Shown here piece by piece: positions 9,560 through 46,273 of a DNA stretch of 64,000 bases; position 1 is the stretch's first letter; each line of letters opens with the position of its first letter. Both the position numbers and the translations under genes were made by a program. This stretch comes from Gemmatimonadota bacterium (GTDB lineage: Bacteria; JAAXHH01): positions 15,387 to 79,386 of the forward strand of contig JAPPBT010000005.1 of assembly GCA_026702745.1 (NCBI GenBank). Direction: 5' to 3'. Under the pieces are notes generated by a model. The model saw nothing but the letters and a program-made list of their open reading frames with translations, made no database searches and was not told where the DNA came from.

Positions 9560-10666
9560 ATGACGACAGGGCTTATCGGCAGGCGAATCAAGGCGTTGCG
9601 CGAGGAACGCGGGTTATCGCAGGAAAATGTAGCGAAAATCTTCGGGTTCAGTGATCGGCAGACGGTATCGGCTATCGAGACGGGCGCGAGACGCGTGACG
9701 GCGGAGGAACTGCTGCTCGCCGTCGAAAGACTGGGCGCACCGCTTGAGTACTTTACCGACCCGTTCCTGCTGGCGGGAGAAGGACGCTTCTCCTGGCGCC
9801 AGACCGGCGTCGAAATTGAACGGCTTGAGGCCTGTGAACAATGCGCCGGTCGCTGGATCGGCGCGTACCGCACGCTCGCGCCACAGGTCGGATACGAAAC
9901 GCCGCTGATGCGTCGGGCGTTCGGTCTTACCCGCCACGCGCGTTTCGAGGACGCCATGGCACTCGGCGAGCGGTTCGTCACCGAGTTGGATCTAGGTGAA
10001 GTCCCTGCCGTGCGCCTCATGGAAGTCATGGAACGCGAACTCGGTATCCTGGTGCTCATGATGGACGCCGAGCGCGGTATCTCCGGCGCGGCGTGCCGCT
10101 TGCCCGAACTCGACGCGGTGCTGATTGCGCGACATGAAGTCGTCGGACGCCGCCACTTCGATCTCGCCCATGAGTTGTTTCACCTCCTGACCTGGGATGC
10201 GATGCCACCCGAACACTCCGAGGATGCGTTGGAGACCGGAGGCAACCGCACCGAGCAACTCACCAACAACTTCGCGGCGGCGGTTCTGATGCCGGCCGCC
10301 ACCCTGGCAAGGTTCGGAAGCTGGTCTGGCCTCGCAGAAGATAAGTTGATCCGGAAACTACATGCGGTGGCGAACGAGTTGCGCGTGACGGCCTCAGCAC
10401 TGAGATGGCGGCTGGTCGCACTAGGCGAACTGAAACCCGCGGTCGCGCGGTCCGTACCTGATGCAGCATTGCGCAACAATAGCACAGAAATGGCCGAGAA
10501 CGGCCTGCCTGCCCTGTTCTCGAGACCGTTCATGGTGGTACTCAGCCTTGCGATCGAAAGGGGCTACATCTCGGTGCGAAGCATTGCCAGCTTGCTTGAC
10601 CTTGACGTCGAGGACCTCGTAGATCTCTTCGCTGCACATGACGTCCAGTGCGCAATTGAGCTGTGA
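9560..10666 (+). CDS. XRE-family HTH fused to an ImmA/IrrE (peptidase M78) metallopeptidase
   Basis: IKALREERGLSQENVAKIFG HTH; RRHFDLAHELFH (HExxH); ATG at 9560 after GGAGG. Confidence 0.9.
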   Translation: MTTGLIGRRIKALREERGLSQENVAKIFGFSDRQTVSAIETGARRVTAEELLLAVERLGAPLEYFTDPFLLAGEGRFSWRQTGVEIERLEACEQCAGRWIGAYRTLAPQVGYETPLMRRAFGLTRHARFEDAMALGERFVTELDLGEVPAVRLMEVMERELGILVLMMDAERGISGAACRLPELDAVLIARHEVVGRRHFDLAHELFHLLTWDAMPPEHSEDALETGGNRTEQLTNNFAAAVLMPAATLARFGSWSGLAEDKLIRKLHAVANELRVTASALRWRLVALGELKPAVARSVPDAALRNNSTEMAENGLPALFSRPFMVVLSLAIERGYISVRSIASLLDLDVEDLVDLFAAHDVQCAIEL

Positions 10667-10672
10667 GGTGTC

Positions 10673-11188
10673 ATGGCCCGGGATCGAGGTACCGTGTTGG
10701 TTGATACTAACGTCATACTGGAGTCCTATCGGTCAGGCTCGTGGCGAGCGTTGGCCGGTGGTTATCCGGTGGAATCCGTTGAAGAATGCGTCGATGAAAC
10801 GCAGCCGTGTTTTCAGCGTCGCAGGGCGGCGATTCGAGTTAGCGAAGGCGAATTGCGAGATTCCGTGAAAGCGGTCCATTCGGTCGGTAACCCCGAACAC
10901 GCAGGATTGGCCGTTCGAATCCACAATATCGCTTTGGATCGGGGAGAGGCTTCGCTTTGGGCGCATGCACTGAGCAGGACCGACGCATGGGTCTTGTGCG
11001 GACCGGACCGAGCCAGTCTTCGATGCGGTGTCCGGCTTGGGTTCCGACGGCGACTGGTGTCCCTCGAGGAACTCCTCAATGGTGTCGGTTACCGGTCAAG
11101 AATCAACCTTCGCCCGCAGTACACGAAGCGTTGGCATGAGAGCGTGCTTGGTGAAATACTTCTTACGGAAGAAGATCAAATCACATAA
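10673..11188 (+). CDS. PIN-like domain protein, partner of the XRE-ImmA gene
   Basis: VLVDTNVILE, LDRGEASL and CGPDRAS acidic PIN-type residues; 6 bp downstream of the ImmA gene. Confidence 0.75.
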   Translation: MARDRGTVLVDTNVILESYRSGSWRALAGGYPVESVEECVDETQPCFQRRRAAIRVSEGELRDSVKAVHSVGNPEHAGLAVRIHNIALDRGEASLWAHALSRTDAWVLCGPDRASLRCGVRLGFRRRLVSLEELLNGVGYRSRINLRPQYTKRWHESVLGEILLTEEDQIT

Positions 11189-41913: not shown

Positions 41914-42711
41914 TCACACGCCCAGCACCCCGCGCAACCGGTCGGACGCCCGGGACAGCACCGTGGGCGGCACGGGTACGTGGTTATAATCGGAAAATCG
42001 CCGGTGGGCCCAGTGGGCGGCATACTGGGACTGGAAGACGTAGCGCATCCGGTCGGACGTGACCGGCGCTCCCCGGTGCCAGCACTGGTTGTTCTGAAGG
42101 TAGACGTCACCCGCCTTGCAGAAGACCGATACCGGTCCCCGGCCTTCGAACTCGGGGTGATCCTGGCTGTTGGGGTCCCTGCCGGAATAGTGGCTGCCGG
42201 GGACGAACTGCGTCGGGCCGTCCTCGACCGTGTCGATGTCGGTGAGCGCCATCTGGATGGTGAACCACTGCACCGGCATGCGGATGCGGGGGTCGTGGCG
42301 GGGCACGTCGTCCGGCAGCGGGAACTCCACCCGGTCGTCCACGTGCCACAGATCGATCGCCTGGCCCGGCGCGTTGCGGATCACGTTCTGACCGCAGAAC
42401 TTGCAGTCCTCTCCCACGACCGCCTCGGCCAGGCTCAGGATCGGCTCCCGGATCAGCATGTCCACGAACACCGCGTCCAGCTCCAGCGTGTTCCGCAACA
42501 CGAATCCGTCGCCCTGTCCGCTCACGTAGTCGGTGCCGGCCAGCACGGGATCGTTGAAGCAACGGTCCGTGACCTCGCGGAGTGCGTCGATTTCTTCCCG
42601 CGTCAGCACCCCGGGGATGAGGGTGACACCATTCCTGAAAAAGTCCTCGAGAATCACTTCCATTTGGGCGTCGTCGAGGCGCTCGCCGGGTAGTATGCGT
42701 TTTGAGATCAC
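41914..42711 (-). CDS. PhyH family dioxygenase
   Basis: FFRNGVT, WHVD, GPTQFVPGSH, CWHRG. Confidence 0.88.
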   Translation of the reverse strand: MISKRILPGERLDDAQMEVILEDFFRNGVTLIPGVLTREEIDALREVTDRCFNDPVLAGTDYVSGQGDGFVLRNTLELDAVFVDMLIREPILSLAEAVVGEDCKFCGQNVIRNAPGQAIDLWHVDDRVEFPLPDDVPRHDPRIRMPVQWFTIQMALTDIDTVEDGPTQFVPGSHYSGRDPNSQDHPEFEGRGPVSVFCKAGDVYLQNNQCWHRGAPVTSDRMRYVFQSQYAAHWAHRRFSDYNHVPVPPTVLSRASDRLRGVLGV

Positions 42712-42753
42712 GGTTCATCCTTCCGTTTACCAATCCCAGACAGTCGATATTCG

Positions 42754-43242
42754 CTAAACACTCGCCCTTTCAGCAGCAGTTCTCAAGACATCTACTATAC
42801 GTTGGGCTCGCTCACCTACTTGATTGAACCAACGCGAGTCCTCGGCCTCAATGGCAGCGAGGGCATAGTCACGCTTTTCTATGGCCACGATCGTTTTTTT
42901 GAACTTCCGAAACGTTGTCAGACCGAGGTTGAACATCATGTTCGATACTACCCGTTTAACATCATCAGGATGAGAATCGAAGTCGGTGAAGACGCCACGT
43001 GCTTCAATGTGGCATCGTTCGATATCGTTCTGACAAAGGTATTTCGCTTCTTTGTCAGTGATTCCGTCATCAACGTTACTCCGACCTAAATAGGCTGCTT
43101 CCTCCTCCGAAATACCTACGTCCTCAAGGTTTCGACCAATACCAATGGTCTTTTTGTTTGCCGGACACATGTAGGGTATAAGACGAACCCCTTCGTCTCT
43201 CTTCAAGTCTTCAAAAAGGCGGTCTTTCCAGTCCATTTTCAA
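42754..43242 (-). CDS. Phage T4-type lysozyme (glycoside hydrolase family 24)
   Basis: DEGVRLIPYMCPANKKTIGIGRNL (Glu/Cys/Thr at the catalytic positions), NMMFNLG, AEDSRWFNQVGERA; no signal peptide. Confidence 0.88.
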   Translation of the reverse strand: MKMDWKDRLFEDLKRDEGVRLIPYMCPANKKTIGIGRNLEDVGISEEEAAYLGRSNVDDGITDKEAKYLCQNDIERCHIEARGVFTDFDSHPDDVKRVVSNMMFNLGLTTFRKFKKTIVAIEKRDYALAAIEAEDSRWFNQVGERAQRIVDVLRTAAERASV

Positions 43243-43296
43243 AACTCCAAATTGTTCAACTGTATGGATATTACCAGTAGTTTCTACATCCCGTTT

Positions 43297-43854
43297 TTAG
43301 TTGTATGGATTCCTCCCGTGTCTACTAATCCGGTTTCTGCGAATGAATCGATGTAGTCCATCACCAGAATCCTTAATTATGAAACGGTGTTTTCGCGCCC
43401 ATTGGTCCTTTATCGCCGCCGCTTCATTTTCACTCAACAGATCCTGATCTATCATGGATTCGAGCAGATCTGGTGTTGTAATGACTTTAAGATTTTGGTT
43501 GATACTATGAGCATGCTTAATGGCACGGCGGTCATCCATTGCCAGGATGAGATTACGATGGACCGCAAGCGCGATGGCAGAACACTCACCACCACCCAGG
43601 ATCCTCGTTGCGATAAGTGATCCAAAAAGCTCCAGTTCATCAGTACTCTTTATGGTCATTTGCTGTAGCGTGCCGTCAGAAATGGAGTTTCGTAGTTGAA
43701 GCTTCTGTACCGCGTAATGATCGGTTATTTCTGACACGACATGATCCGTAACGATGTAATTAAGGGAATGTCGCCTTAATAGGTCCATACGAGCTATTCG
43801 CAGGAAATTGACAAGCACAGATGTATCCAGAGCGACTGAGGACATTTGCATCAC
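43297..43854 (-). CDS. PIN-domain protein (DUF3368-like)
   Basis: VALDTSVLVNF, LGGGECSAIALA, LAMDDRRA. Confidence 0.82.
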   Translation of the reverse strand: MMQMSSVALDTSVLVNFLRIARMDLLRRHSLNYIVTDHVVSEITDHYAVQKLQLRNSISDGTLQQMTIKSTDELELFGSLIATRILGGGECSAIALAVHRNLILAMDDRRAIKHAHSINQNLKVITTPDLLESMIDQDLLSENEAAAIKDQWARKHRFIIKDSGDGLHRFIRRNRISRHGRNPYN

Positions 43855-43863
43855 AATTACCCT

Positions 43864-45096
43864 TTAATCCCCTCGAGCTTTAGCAGCAAGGTCCAGGAAT
43901 CGTGGACCATCGATTTTAAGTACTTTACTAAGTTCGAGAAGTCGTCCCTGCGAAATCTCCTCCTGTCGATAGGCTTCAATGGCCAGATTTGCAACCTCGA
44001 AACGCAATTCACGCCCTGACCGTTGTATATTGTCTTTTCGTTCGACACTATCTGCGTCATTCAGCTCATTGAGTAGCTGTTTACCGAATCCCTCAAGTGA
44101 CTTTAGGCTGTCCGTCTCCTTATCAGTTAACAACTTAAGGCTTTTAAGTCTATATAGAGCCGCTTGATAGCTAACCCCGAAACGATGTGCAACTTGTGCC
44201 ACATCCTTGTATGAGATTGTTTTGGAACTTGACTCTTTACGTATTACTCCTTCAGAAGAACCACCGCTGGCAGCATCATAGACAGTCTGAATCCTGTGGT
44301 ACGGGGTTTTAAGTTCCAGATTCTGAAAAATCTCATAAACGCCATCGGCAGGTATCAAGAAAGACGCTGCAAAAGCATTGGCTCGTACTTCAACGAGTTC
44401 TGATGAATTATCACTACTCGAAACAGACAACTGTCCATTTCTATCCATTAAGGCATGCGCGTATTCATGAGCATACGAGAACTTCTTGCGTCCTCGAGAA
44501 TGGTTAGCATTGACTACAATGGCCAGACCGAATGAGATATGATTCAGAAAAAGACCAGAAACACCATTAGGCAGTTCTGCATCTGATGCCCAAACGCCTT
44601 GAGATACGATGAGTTCCGAGATTCCGCGAACCGGAGATTCGCTCAGACCCAGGCGACGGCGTTCTTCGACTGCCGCTTTGTTGCCTTGAGTAATGGCTTC
44701 TCCCTTCGTCCTGGGAGTTCTGAAATCATACGTGGGTAAACCGGTACGAGAATCCAGTCCAAGGACCTCCTTCAGGGCAACACCTTCTTGAAAAAGACTA
44801 AGGCACCCCCAGACCTGCTCACGCACAGTAGGATCCACATTTAATTCCGGCGCGACACGATACAAGGCAACGAAGATATCCTTTTCCTCGGCAGCCTCCT
44901 GAAAGAAGAAGCCTATCGGTCGTCGAAAGCATTCAGCAAGTCTTGCCAGTTCCATTGTCGAAACTGACCGGTTACCGGATTCCATCTGAGTTATTGCTGT
45001 TCTTGTCACCCCAATGGCATCCGCCGTCGCCTGTTGACTGAGCCCCCTGAACTCCCGCGCATAACGCAGTCTTTGTCCGAGCTCTCCGAGATCCAT
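43864..45096 (-). CDS. XRE-family HTH fused to an ImmA/IrrE metallopeptidase
   Basis: LRYAREFRGLSQQATADAIG HTH; RKKFSYAHEYAH (HExxH); EVRANAFAASFLIP. Confidence 0.9.
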   Translation of the reverse strand: MDLGELGQRLRYAREFRGLSQQATADAIGVTRTAITQMESGNRSVSTMELARLAECFRRPIGFFFQEAAEEKDIFVALYRVAPELNVDPTVREQVWGCLSLFQEGVALKEVLGLDSRTGLPTYDFRTPRTKGEAITQGNKAAVEERRRLGLSESPVRGISELIVSQGVWASDAELPNGVSGLFLNHISFGLAIVVNANHSRGRKKFSYAHEYAHALMDRNGQLSVSSSDNSSELVEVRANAFAASFLIPADGVYEIFQNLELKTPYHRIQTVYDAASGGSSEGVIRKESSSKTISYKDVAQVAHRFGVSYQAALYRLKSLKLLTDKETDSLKSLEGFGKQLLNELNDADSVERKDNIQRSGRELRFEVANLAIEAYRQEEISQGRLLELSKVLKIDGPRFLDLAAKARGD

Positions 45097-45144
45097 TACT
45101 CACCTCCCTCGCAGTGGTGGATCGGTTGGCGATACGTAATAGGA

Positions 45145-45173
45145 CATATACTCATTTCGAACATTAATGTCAA
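45145..45173 (-). promoter_or_regulatory. Sigma-70-like promoter (TTGACA-17-TATATG) with a perfect palindrome ACATTAATGT overlapping the -35
   Basis: -35 at 45168-45173, -10 at 45145-45150, palindrome at 45161-45170. Confidence 0.55.
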
Positions 45174-45286
45174 TATAGTTCCGTTATTGTTTGAAATTAA
45201 AACACACGTGGCAACGTATTTCGACAAGCTATTGCCGGTCAAATACCGATTAGATGGTTGAGTATATTCTGAAGAACCGGGTGGCC

Positions 45287-46273
45287 CTACCCCTCGTCCA
45301 TCACGGCCTGGATCATGGCCCGGATGTAGCCGAACTCGTAGGCGAAGGCCTGCCGGTAGCTGTCCGGATCCTTGTGACCCGGCGCGTGGTCGGGCACGCA
45401 CATGTGCGGGTAGCCAACCTCTTTGAGCGCCTGCATGTTGCGGTGCATGTTCATCACGCCCTCGTCGGGCCAGACCTCCTGGAACTTGTTGCGCCCGCCC
45501 ACGATGTTGCGGAAGTGGCAGAGGAAGATCTTCTTGCGCGAGCCGAGGTAGCGGATGATGTCCGGCACTTCGTTGAGGGGATCCAGCGAACTCTCCGCCA
45601 TGCAACCCAGGCAGAGGTTGACGCCGTGATAGGGGCTGGGACAGATCTCGATGAATTGCTTGAAACCATCGAAGCCACCGAGCACGCGGTCGACGCAGCG
45701 ATATCCGGGCGGGAGCCACGGGTCGCAGGGATGGCATGCCATGCGGACCTTGCATTCCGTTGCCACGGGGATCACCCGTTCCAGGAAGTAGGTGATGCGG
45801 GCCCAGTTCATCTCGGCCGTCACGGGCTCGTCGTACCTGGCCGGCCGGTCCTTCGCCTTCTCCAGGTCCCAGGTGCTGTAGATCGAACCGCCGCGTCCGG
45901 GCGGATCGCTCTCGGTGCGCTGGTTCTCCATCTCGCACAGGTAGTACTTGATCGCGGGGATGCCCGCTTCCGAGGCCTGGCGCACCATGTTGCAGACCAG
46001 CTCGATTTCCTTGTCGCCTTCTTCGTACTTGCCCAGCATGTAGTTGGGCACCTGGCCGCCGTCCACGTTCAGGTCGGCGATGGGCAGGGCCACCATTTCC
46101 ATTTCGATCCCGAAACGGGCGCACTTTTCCTTCTTGGCCGCCAGTTCCTCCACGTCCCAGCCGTACTCCCGGTGGAAGGTGATGTTGAGTTCGCTCTTGT
46201 TGAAGACGCCGTGACGGGCCAGGTATTCCAGGTCTTCGTCTGCCGTGCTGAACTGCTGGGTACCGACGTGCAT
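45287..46273 (-). CDS. uxuA: Mannonate dehydratase family protein
   Basis: FLERVIPVATECKVRMACHPCDP, NLCLGC, HFRNI, VPDHAP. Confidence 0.85.
   Translation of the reverse strand: MHVGTQQFSTADEDLEYLARHGVFNKSELNITFHREYGWDVEELAAKKEKCARFGIEMEMVALPIADLNVDGGQVPNYMLGKYEEGDKEIELVCNMVRQASEAGIPAIKYYLCEMENQRTESDPPGRGGSIYSTWDLEKAKDRPARYDEPVTAEMNWARITYFLERVIPVATECKVRMACHPCDPWLPPGYRCVDRVLGGFDGFKQFIEICPSPYHGVNLCLGCMAESSLDPLNEVPDIIRYLGSRKKIFLCHFRNIVGGRNKFQEVWPDEGVMNMHRNMQALKEVGYPHMCVPDHAPGHKDPDSYRQAFAYEFGYIRAMIQAVMDEG

What the first reader, a model, noticed from the sequence alone, without database searches (positions are those of the whole stretch)
42754..45173. AT-rich three-gene cassette: XRE-ImmA peptidase, PIN nuclease and an orphan T4-type lysozyme
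Seen: three co-oriented genes (gaps of 9 and 54 bp) behind one promoter with a palindromic operator, in a visibly AT-richer block inserted among GC-rich catabolic genes. There is no holin, spanin, signal peptide, integrase or phage structural gene. Known: HTH-Zn-peptidase/toxin pairs act in abortive defence (RosmerTA), and GH24 lysozymes normally need holins or SAR anchors. Inference: this may be an undescribed defence or programmed-lysis module in which a damage-sensing peptidase releases an RNase and a muramidase, or the lysozyme acts on neighbours once the cell lyses. The paralogous pair at 9560-11188 lacks the lysozyme and is a natural control.
Basis: partly seen in the sequence, partly recalled or inferred. 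Interest (0 to 1): 0.8.

Follow-up and report, generated by a model that had tools for sequence, protein, structure and literature searches.

The report
Toxin-antitoxin pair with passenger phage lysozyme
The three genes are real, but only the first two (a repressor-peptidase and a PIN nuclease) form a widespread, already predicted toxin-antitoxin/defence pair; the phage-type lysozyme behind them is a swappable passenger seen only in this one group of sponge-associated bacteria.

Summary
Observation confirmed. Three co-oriented minus-strand genes lie in a low-GC islet (GC3 0.41-0.48; flanks 0.85-0.88): XRE-HTH/M78 peptidase (45096-43864), DUF3368 PIN-like nuclease (43854-43297) and a signal-less GH24 lysozyme (43242-42754). 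No holin, integrase or phage structural gene is nearby.

Interpretation only partly supported. Genes 1 and 2 form a fixed two-gene unit: all 80 species genomes holding a DUF3368 relative have the XRE-M78 gene directly upstream. This architecture is already published as a predicted TA and resembles RosmerTA. The lysozyme is not part of that unit:
- 0 of 80 pair loci carry it.
- 0 of 161 loci of lysozyme relatives (mostly phage lysis cassettes) carry the pair.
- At the same chromosomal slot, sister Gemmatimonadota carry a methyltransferase-HNH gene instead, or nothing.
- Other metagenomes cover the pair but not the lysozyme.

The lysozyme still looks active and maintained: the catalytic Glu is present, the Asp20-to-Cys change is subfamily-typical, and dN/dS is 0.24.

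Best reading: a RosmerTA-like pair in a recombination-prone accessory slot, with a captured endolysin as cargo. A lineage-specific functional coupling is not excluded (about 0.15-0.2). Interest is low to moderate.

The parts
45145..45173 (-). Promoter-like site TTGACA-17 nt-TATATG, overlapped by the palindrome ACATTAATGT (45170-45161). Probable autoregulated promoter/operator of the pair.
   Evidence: Read. The TTGACA and adjacent AATGTTCGA blocks are conserved in L004, L010 and the 65 %-identical L251 allele. The scanner lists a second candidate at 45214-45186. Function is inferred.
43864..45096 (-). XRE-family HTH (residues about 5-63) fused to an M78/ImmA-IrrE-type Zn-peptidase (HEYAH at 210), plus an unassigned C-terminal region of about 150 aa. 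RmrA-like antitoxin/repressor, 410 aa.
   Evidence: Pfam. PADLOC RmrA 2.3e-26. NCBIfam spr1629 repressor/antitoxin scores below cut-off. HExxH motif. An orthologue lies directly upstream of the PIN gene in 80 of 80 genomes. dN/dS 0.14-0.15.
43297..43854 (-). DUF3368/COG2405 PIN-like nuclease, 185 aa. Predicted toxin/effector.
   Evidence: PF11848 precomputed. PADLOC PDC-S70 1.5e-10. Acidic residues D10, E90 and D108 are invariant, and D107 is nearly invariant, in 27 sequences. AlphaFold2 model has pLDDT 86. Best structural matches are VapC PIN toxins 5h4g and 5x3t. dN/dS is about 0.2.
43243..43296 (-). 54-nt spacer holding a GGAG ribosome-binding site 8 nt before ATG 43236. No promoter or terminator detected.
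   Evidence: The GGAG is kept in L010, but the promoter-like hexamers are not. The recombination breakpoint against the methyltransferase-type loci lies exactly at the PIN stop codon.
42754..43242 (-). GH24 T4-type lysozyme, 160-162 aa, cytoplasmic (no signal/SAR). Lineage-specific cargo gene of phage-endolysin origin.
   Evidence: PF00959. T4 lysozyme in PDB at 7e-14, best hit being the D20C mutant chain 1qtz. Glu17 (T4L E11) is invariant; Cys26 (T4L D20) is found in 53 of 91 relatives and Asp in 38; Thr32 (T4L T26) is found in 82 of 91. Nearest relatives are about 50 % identical or less, many of them phage endolysins. dN/dS is 0.24 against L010, binomial p = 0.005.
42712..42753 (-). 42-nt spacer to the co-directional PhyH gene (41914-42711), with no terminator. 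Marks the right end of the low-GC block.
   Evidence: Homology to the methyltransferase-type loci resumes at the PhyH start.
45285..45316 (-). Last 32 nt of the UxuA/AP_endonuc_2 gene, at the left end of the islet. The same sequence is duplicated around or beside the pair in sister lineages (att-like repeat).
   Evidence: Single copy in the window. Two copies flank the pair in L008 (4536 and 6672). Two tandem copies lie upstream of the pair in L251.

Best explanation
The locus is a horizontally acquired two-gene toxin-antitoxin-type module of the RosmerTA kind, with a phage endolysin gene captured as cargo in the variable position directly behind it.

Inferred mechanism of the pair:
1. The HTH domain of the 410-aa protein binds the operator that overlaps its own -35 element and represses the operon.
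2. The same protein neutralises the PIN-like nuclease.
3. A trigger such as phage infection or DNA damage activates or consumes the M78 peptidase-antitoxin.
4. The nuclease is freed and growth stops.

Role of the lysozyme. It is probably an active muramidase and is probably transcribed as a third cistron, or by read-through that continues into PhyH. It has no holin, SAR or signal route to the cell wall. It is not a conserved partner of the pair and is best seen as a maintained passenger. If it has any effect, it would be to speed lysis once the membrane is already breached.

Shown here: gene structure; domain identities and catalytic residues; strict pair linkage across phyla; absence of the lysozyme from all other pair loci; cargo swapping at the orthologous slot; purifying selection.

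Inferred by analogy with ImmA/ImmR, IrrE/DdrO and RosmerTA: toxicity, neutralisation, the trigger, and co-transcription.
For: Pair identity:
- Gene 1 matches RmrA and gene 2 matches PDC-S70, with supporting Pfam hits.
- The PIN fold and its acidic residues are confirmed.
- The HTH-DUF955 + COG2405/DUF3368 architecture is described as a predicted TA in PMC5499597. The ImmA-antitoxin hub with PIN partners is described in PMC10440598. RosmerTA is defined in bioRxiv 10.1101/2022.05.11.491447.
- XRE-M78 lies directly upstream in 80 of 80 genomes.

Lysozyme is not core:
- 0 of 80 pair loci carry it, by tblastn and by HMM.
- 0 of 161 lysozyme-relative loci carry the PIN gene.
- Downstream neighbours of the pair in 75 genomes fall into 64 Pfam families, none present in more than 3 genomes. 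Many are defence or mobile genes such as Cap15, SAVED, type ISP, GmrSD, HipA and transposases.
- The orthologous slot holds either the lysozyme, a methyltransferase-HNH gene, or nothing.
- The breakpoint lies at the PIN stop codon.
- Metagenomes X3 and X4 have zero depth over 42635-43222 while the pair has depth 30 (X3) or low, patchy depth of 0-4 (X4). X5 has 2.5 against about 30.

Lysozyme comes from phage lysis cassettes:
- Relatives are annotated phage endolysins, and there are at least 595 matches in IMG/VR.
- 76 % of relatives have a small same-strand membrane ORF within 1 kb, against 29 % at decoy positions. The window has none.

Lysozyme is intact and maintained. D20C/A are the only Asp20 substitutions that keep activity (bioRxiv 10.1101/418723).
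Against: - All three genes have the same foreign composition (GC3 0.41-0.48), so they may have arrived together from an unsampled donor in which they were already linked.
- The lysozyme occurs in at least two, probably three, diverged lineages: the window, L010, and a 92 %-identical contig in run X5. It is under purifying selection, has a good conserved RBS, and has no detectable promoter of its own. These features fit a functional third cistron as well as a passenger.
- In the methyltransferase-type loci the PIN gene has lost its native stop and runs into scar sequence. This suggests the lysozyme-type arrangement may be the older one.
- No expression data could be obtained.
- Toxicity, neutralisation and defence are untested for this PIN subfamily.
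Confidence: 0.65

Rival explanations
1. Lineage-specific three-gene system. The endolysin has been recruited as a second effector of the RosmerTA-like module. Derepression after the trigger would raise both the PIN nuclease and the cytoplasmic muramidase, so that an infected or damaged cell is first arrested and then lysed as soon as its membrane is compromised, for example by the phage's own holin.
For: - One promoter region, gaps of 9 and 54 nt, no terminator, and a conserved RBS.
- The same foreign GC3 in all three genes.
- The lysozyme is kept in two or three diverged lineages with dN/dS 0.24, p = 0.005.
- Catalytic residues are intact.
- The native PIN stop codon is preserved only in the lysozyme-type loci.
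Against: - No second, independent occurrence in 80 pair loci or 161 lysozyme loci.
- Sister lineages keep the pair without it, and it is absent or a minority in other populations.
- No membrane-lesion component is encoded, so the enzyme cannot reach its substrate on its own.
- Synonymous divergence of the lysozyme (dS 0.11) is a quarter of that of the PIN gene (0.40) in the same genome pair. The two therefore do not share one history.
Confidence: 0.2
2. Prophage relic. The XRE-M78 gene is the immunity repressor/antirepressor, and the lysozyme is the last surviving lysis gene of a degraded prophage. They were brought together by internal deletions and have no present function.
For: - ImmR/ImmA-type modules control phages and ICEs.
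- The lysozyme's relatives are phage endolysins.
- The composition is foreign.
- A 32-nt att-like duplication of the 3' end of the neighbouring gene occurs in sister lineages.
Against: - The XRE-M78 gene always travels with the PIN gene as a compact unit of about 1.76 kb, in very varied contexts across 80 genomes that often hold defence or mobile genes.
- No integrase, structural gene or recognisable phage gene fragment is present.
- All three genes are intact and under purifying selection.
- The spacers are clean and short.
Confidence: 0.1
3. The lysozyme is a bacteriocin-like or contact-dependent peptidoglycan toxin with its own immunity partner (pesticin/Pim-like), unrelated to the pair.
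For: Earlier notes of this scan describe signal-less GH24 genes paired with lipoprotein immunity genes in other genomes. This is a lead only.
Against: - The protein is a bare 160-aa catalytic domain with no translocation or receptor-binding domain.
- No adjacent small lipoprotein or membrane ORF exists on either side.
- The neighbours are the PIN gene and PhyH.
Confidence: 0.03

Closest known systems
HTH-DUF955 (M78/COG2856) + COG2405/DUF3368 PIN-like predicted toxin-antitoxin systems (Matelska et al. 2017, PMC5499597)
   Same: Same two-gene architecture and the same Pfam families. The HExxH motif and the PIN acidic residues are kept, and the genes are in the same order and co-oriented.
   Different: Nothing essential differs for the pair. 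That class has no third peptidoglycan-hydrolase gene. It is predicted only and has not been experimentally characterised.
RosmerTA (RmrT/RmrA) anti-phage toxin-antitoxin systems (Millman et al. 2022; Ernits et al. 2023, PMC10440598)
   Same: The antitoxin has an N-terminal HTH and an ImmA-type Zn-peptidase, and it matches the PADLOC RmrA models at 2e-26. A toxin gene is adjacent. Neighbours in other genomes often look like defence islands.
   Different: The toxin here is a PIN-like nuclease, with no RmrT model hit. The founding system's toxin is of unknown function, and the Kita-phage RmrT depolarises membranes. Gene order relative to the founding systems was not checked, and defence is untested.
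Phage GH24 endolysins (T4 gp e; marine phage endolysins such as Shewanella phage ZP9)
   Same: Full-length alignment to T4 lysozyme. The catalytic Glu and Thr are kept, and the Cys variant of Asp20 is typical of the subfamily. Size is 160 aa with no export signal, as in holin-dependent endolysins.
   Different: No holin, spanin or any phage gene is beside it. It sits as the third cistron behind a TA pair in a bacterial catabolic gene string.
VapBC-type PIN toxin-antitoxin pairs
   Same: The effector has a PIN fold; best structural matches are VapC4 (5h4g) and M. tuberculosis VapC (5x3t).
   Different: The antitoxin is a 410-aa HTH-peptidase fusion, not a small VapB. The PIN belongs to the DUF3368 family, which has no PDB match by sequence.

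Membership tests
HTH-M78 + DUF3368 PIN predicted TA (Matelska 2017) | PIN-like protein of family PF11848/COG2405 with conserved acidic active-site residues | tested here: met
   PF11848 is on record for this protein and all relatives. D10, E90 and D108 are invariant and D107 is nearly invariant. The PIN fold is confirmed by AF2 and Foldseek.
HTH-M78 + DUF3368 PIN predicted TA (Matelska 2017) | Directly upstream, co-oriented gene that fuses an XRE HTH to a DUF955/M78 peptidase with HExxH | tested here: met
   HEYAH at residue 210. The linkage holds in 80 of 80 genomes.
RosmerTA | RmrA-type antitoxin (HTH + Zn-peptidase) | tested here: met
   15 RmrA models match, the best at 2.3e-26 over residues 8-253.
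RosmerTA | Partner recognised as an RmrT toxin family | tested here: not met
   Gene 2 hits only the PDC-S70 models in PADLOC and no RmrT model. PIN partners of the ImmA hub are nevertheless reported in PMC10440598.
RosmerTA | Toxicity neutralised by the antitoxin; protection against phages | not testable with these tools
   Needs cloning and phage challenge.
GH24 T4-type lysozyme | PF00959 above the gathering score and a full-length match to T4 lysozyme | tested here: met
   34.7 bits against a cut-off of 22.3. PDB T4L at 7e-14 over residues 9-156.
GH24 T4-type lysozyme | Catalytic triad Glu11 / Asp20 / Thr26 (T4 numbering) | tested here: inconclusive
   Glu and Thr are present, but Asp20 is Cys. 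Cys occurs in 53 of 91 relatives, and the best PDB match is the T4L chain carrying Cys20. D20C/A are reported as the only Asp20 substitutions that keep activity. Activity itself is untested.
Phage lysis cassette (holin-endolysin-spanin) | Adjacent small membrane protein(s) on the same strand | tested here: not met
   None in 42400-45400. Among relatives the rate is 76 %, against 29 % at decoy positions.
Prophage / integrative element | Integrase, structural or replication genes; att repeats | tested here: not met
   No such genes lie within +/-10 kb. The window holds only one copy of the 32-nt repeat. Duplicates exist only in sister lineages.
   0 of 80 and 0 of 161. It is found only at the orthologous locus of one Gemmatimonadota lineage.

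The most novel reading that the evidence does not exclude
In this sponge-associated Gemmatimonadota lineage, a RosmerTA-like module may have recruited a holin-less phage endolysin as a co-regulated second effector, making a 'nuclease arrest plus primed lysis' abortive-infection operon. More generally, the XRE-M78/DUF3368 pair may act as the regulatory anchor of a small att-flanked element whose downstream position accepts swappable effector cargo (lysozyme in one lineage, methyltransferase-HNH in another).
Probability: 0.15. Interest if true: 0.6.

Novelty: new member of a known kind. Interest (0 to 1): 0.3.

Why it matters
The result separates a real and very widespread module from a local add-on.

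- **The pair.** The HTH-peptidase/DUF3368-PIN pair is strictly linked in 80 of 80 species genomes from many phyla, often next to defence or mobile genes. No member of this PIN subfamily has been characterised experimentally. It is therefore a reasonable target for TA and defence testing, but it is not a new kind of system.
- **The lysozyme.** Its linkage would matter only if the enzyme proved to be a functional second effector. That would be an example of an endolysin domesticated into a defence operon.
- **Natural controls.** The orthologous loci with lysozyme, with methyltransferase-HNH, or with nothing are better natural controls than the distant second pair in the window.

Tried and rejected
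The window's own genome and its relatives could not be scanned. I used the search for related loci, the look-up of encoding contigs and read laying instead.
- The lysozyme alone found only one archaeal locus at 38 % in genome contigs. An alignment was needed.
- The first script failed because the loci were not yet on disk.
- No RNA run holds the stretch, so co-transcription could not be tested.
- A sequence profile of the PIN family found nothing in the PDB. The fold was confirmed by AF2 and Foldseek instead.
- The Erwinia pangenome paper linking endolysin-like hydrolases and defence holds nothing about a RosmerTA-lysozyme linkage.
- Rejected: complete phage lysis cassette (no holin or spanin).
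- Rejected: prophage (no phage genes).
- Rejected: pesticin-like toxin with an immunity partner (bare catalytic domain, no partner).
- Rejected: pseudo-enzyme (catalytic Glu invariant; Cys20 typical of the subfamily).
- Rejected: the pair at 9560-11188 as a control (25 % identity for XRE-M78, no significant similarity for the partner).
- Limit: the lysozyme HMM covers this GH24 subfamily only. Other peptidoglycan-hydrolase families next to the pair were checked only through the immediate downstream gene in 75 genomes. Only the 25 commonest of 64 Pfam families were visible there, and none of those 25 was a hydrolase.
Full report
**1. What is there**

On the minus strand lie three ORFs: 45096..43864 (410 aa), 43854..43297 (185 aa) and 43242..42754 (162 aa). 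The third most likely starts at ATG 43236, which gives the 160-aa form held in the protein database. The gaps are 9 and 54 nt.

- Gene 1 carries an XRE-type HTH (HTH_3, 1e-11) and Peptidase_M78 (4e-18). It has HEYAH at residue 210.
- Gene 2 has no hit in the Pfam scan run here. It is on record as PF11848/DUF3368 and matches the PADLOC candidate PDC-S70 at 1.5e-10.
- Gene 3 is PF00959 Phage_lysozyme.

The block is compositionally foreign. The three genes have GC 0.455-0.479 and GC3 0.41-0.48. The co-directional flanking genes (Oxidored_molyb, Amidohydro_2, UxuA/AP_endonuc_2 upstream; PhyH downstream) have GC 0.625-0.66 and GC3 0.85-0.88.

No integrase or phage structural gene lies within 10 kb. 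No same-strand small ORF with a membrane helix lies in the cassette.

A plausible promoter is TTGACA-17-TATATG at 45173-45145, overlapped by the palindrome ACATTAATGT. Its -35 element and nearby blocks are conserved even in a 65 %-identical allele. No terminator-like site separates the genes or follows the lysozyme.

**2. Source organism**

The best named relative of the locus is a MAG labelled Gemmatimonadetes bacterium SB0665_bin_8. Its flanks are 92-95 % identical and its pair is 86 % identical to the window.

**3. Genes 1 and 2 are a fixed, widespread unit**

A search with an alignment of DUF3368 relatives returned 80 species genomes. They include Gemmatimonadota, Spirochaetia, Alpha- and Gammaproteobacteria, Latescibacterota, Binatia, Acidobacteriota, Chlamydiota, Verrucomicrobiota and Planctomycetota.

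- In all 80, an XRE-M78 gene (39-61 % identical outside the clade; full length wherever the contig and assembly allow) lies directly upstream on the same strand.
- PIN residues D10, E90 and D108 are invariant, and D107 is nearly invariant.
- An AlphaFold2 model (pLDDT 86) matches VapC PIN toxins best.
- Gene 1 matches 15 PADLOC RmrA models, the best at 2e-26.

The architecture is already in the literature. HTH-DUF955 + COG2405/DUF3368 is described as a predicted multi-component TA (PMC5499597). An ImmA-protease antitoxin hub with PIN partners is described in PMC10440598. RosmerTA is defined as a Zn-peptidase antitoxin plus toxin defence system.

**4. The lysozyme is not part of that unit**

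- None of the 80 pair loci has this lysozyme within 5 kb, by tblastn or by an HMM built from 91 relatives.
- None of 161 loci holding lysozyme relatives (80 genomes, 80 IMG/VR contigs, one archaeon) has a DUF3368 gene. Only two have weak generic HTH hits.
- The gene directly downstream of the pair in 75 other genomes falls into 64 Pfam families, none seen more than three times. Many are defence or mobile genes: Cap15, SAVED/2TM, type ISP, GmrSD, HipA, transposases, ArdC.

**5. The orthologous slot is a natural experiment**

In related metagenomic lineages the same gene string (Oxidored_molyb, Amidohydro_2, UxuA-like, [pair], X, PhyH) is present, and X differs:

- X is the lysozyme in the window, L002, L003 and L010.
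- X is a 600-604-aa SAM-methyltransferase/HNH fusion on the other strand in L004-L009 and L011.
- X is nothing in L251, where a 57 %-identical PIN gene overlaps the PhyH start.

The breakpoint between the first two types lies exactly at the PIN stop codon. In the methyltransferase type the stop is lost. The ORF then runs 45-54 codons through a scar made of a reverse-complement piece that, read by eye, resembles the downstream bicupin gene, plus a 32-nt duplicate of the UxuA-like 3' end.

Laying other metagenomes on the window gives these depths:

| Run | Pair | Lysozyme (42635-43222) |
|---|---|---|
| X3 | 30 | 0 |
| X4 | 0-4 (patchy) | 0 |
| X5 | about 30 | 2.5 |

So the lysozyme is dispensable and is a minority state in those populations.

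**6. The lysozyme itself**

It aligns over its full length with T4 lysozyme (7e-14). The best PDB chain is the one carrying Cys at position 20. Residues, in T4 numbering:

- Glu17 (E11) is invariant in 91 relatives.
- Cys26 (D20) is Cys in 53 and Asp in 38.
- Thr32 (T26) is Thr in 82.

D20C/A are reported as the only Asp20 substitutions that keep activity, and as common in phage lysozymes (bioRxiv 10.1101/418723).

The nearest relatives are about 50 % identical or less. They include annotated endolysins of marine phages and at least 595 IMG/VR matches. One is a typical lysis cassette on a contig binned as Gemmatimonadota (L103). A small same-strand membrane ORF lies within 1 kb of 76 % of relatives, against 29 % at decoy positions. 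The window has none.

Against L010 the gene shows 10 nonsynonymous and 11 synonymous differences. This gives dN/dS 0.24, with binomial p = 0.005 against neutrality. It is therefore most likely an active, maintained, cytoplasmic muramidase with no route to the wall of its own.

**7. History**

Two signals point in different directions.

For co-acquisition, or for the lysozyme type being the older state:
- All three genes share the same foreign GC3.
- The native PIN stop survives only in the lysozyme type.
- The window and L010 are two deep lineages of the pair (87.5 % identical), while the methyltransferase-type loci form one tight clade of 91-95 %.

For separate histories:
- Between the window and L010, synonymous divergence is 0.40 in PIN. 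It is only 0.11 in the lysozyme and 0.15 in PhyH.
- The identity profile dips over the pair (79-93 %) and returns to flank level (92-96 %) over the lysozyme.
- This means either the pair's alleles are older or faster-evolving, or the lysozyme-PhyH segment was exchanged more recently.

I cannot decide which arrangement is ancestral. Either way the locus is a recombination-prone accessory slot.

**8. Mechanism**

Most likely (0.65): an autorepressed HTH-peptidase antitoxin/repressor plus a PIN nuclease toxin working as a RosmerTA-like TA/abortive-defence pair. The lysozyme is cargo, transcribed as a third cistron or by read-through.

Rivals:
- A lineage-specific three-gene arrest-and-lysis operon (0.2).
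- A prophage relic (0.1).
- A bacteriocin-like lysozyme toxin (0.03).

Toxicity, neutralisation, the trigger and co-transcription are inferred. No RNA data exist for the stretch.

**9. Verdict**

The pair is a new member of a known, predicted kind. The three-gene cassette is a local arrangement, not a conserved system. Interest is 0.3. The boldest reading still open is that the endolysin has been domesticated as a co-regulated second effector, or that the pair anchors a small att-flanked element with swappable cargo. I put this at about 0.15.

Noticed in passing
window 45285-45316; L008 4536-4558 and 6672-6694; L251 1-23 and 73-95: The last ~32 nt of the UxuA/AP_endonuc_2 gene (ATGATCCAGGCCGTGATGGACGAGGGGTAGGG) is duplicated in sister lineages. 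One copy lies on each side of the XRE-M78/PIN pair in L008, and two tandem copies lie upstream of the pair in L251. The window has one copy. It looks like an att-type target duplication left by repeated insertions at this site, with no integrase nearby.
   Followed up: partly
L004 6785-8599 (-), L008 6725-8527 (-): The alternative cargo in sister lineages is a 600-604-aa fusion of a class-I SAM methyltransferase (N-terminal) and an HNH_4 endonuclease motif (near residue 500). Its GC matches the host (0.64), and it weakly matches PADLOC mad2 through the methyltransferase part.
   Followed up: partly
L004 6001-6720, L008 6001-6699: In the methyltransferase-type loci the PIN ORF has lost its stop. 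It reads on for 45-54 codons through a reverse-complement piece that, read by eye, resembles the downstream bicupin gene. It ends in the same ...MIQAVMDE(G/A) peptide as the UxuA-like protein, because it runs into the duplicated 3' end in frame.
   Followed up: partly
window 43297-45096 compared with flanks: Synonymous divergence of the pair between sister lineages (dS 0.40-0.50) is about twice that of the flanking genes (0.15-0.30) and four times that of the lysozyme (0.11). The pair's alleles are either old polymorphisms or evolving fast. L251 carries a 65 %-identical allele at the same site, while its PhyH start (54 aa) differs from the window's at only 3 positions.
   Followed up: partly
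window 9560-11188: The second XRE-M78 gene (RmrA 3e-17) is only 25 % identical to the first. Its 171-aa partner has no Pfam or PADLOC hit and no significant similarity to the DUF3368 protein, although it aligns with the PIN acidic positions. It is a different toxin family behind the same kind of antitoxin.
   Followed up: partly
L010 4746-5982 and 2420-3534: In contig L010 both the XRE-M78 gene and the unrelated Amidohydro_2 gene are split into two ORFs. The contig name indicates 9x coverage, so these may be assembly indels rather than pseudogenes.
   Followed up: no
window 45034-45261 (+): A 75-aa plus-strand ORF with one hydrophobic segment overlaps the pair's promoter region and the start of gene 1. 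It is probably spurious.
   Followed up: no
L012-L090: The XRE-M78/DUF3368 pair has an almost constant length (about 1.76 kb) across many phyla. In most genomes it has host-like GC. Only in the Gemmatimonadota clade is it 15-18 points below its flanks, which suggests recent import there.
   Followed up: partly
L252 172-3549: In one metagenomic contig the pair lies directly behind an N6_N4 methyltransferase (792 aa) and an HNH_2 protein, and ahead of a DUF2971 gene. This is another defence-island-like context.
   Followed up: no
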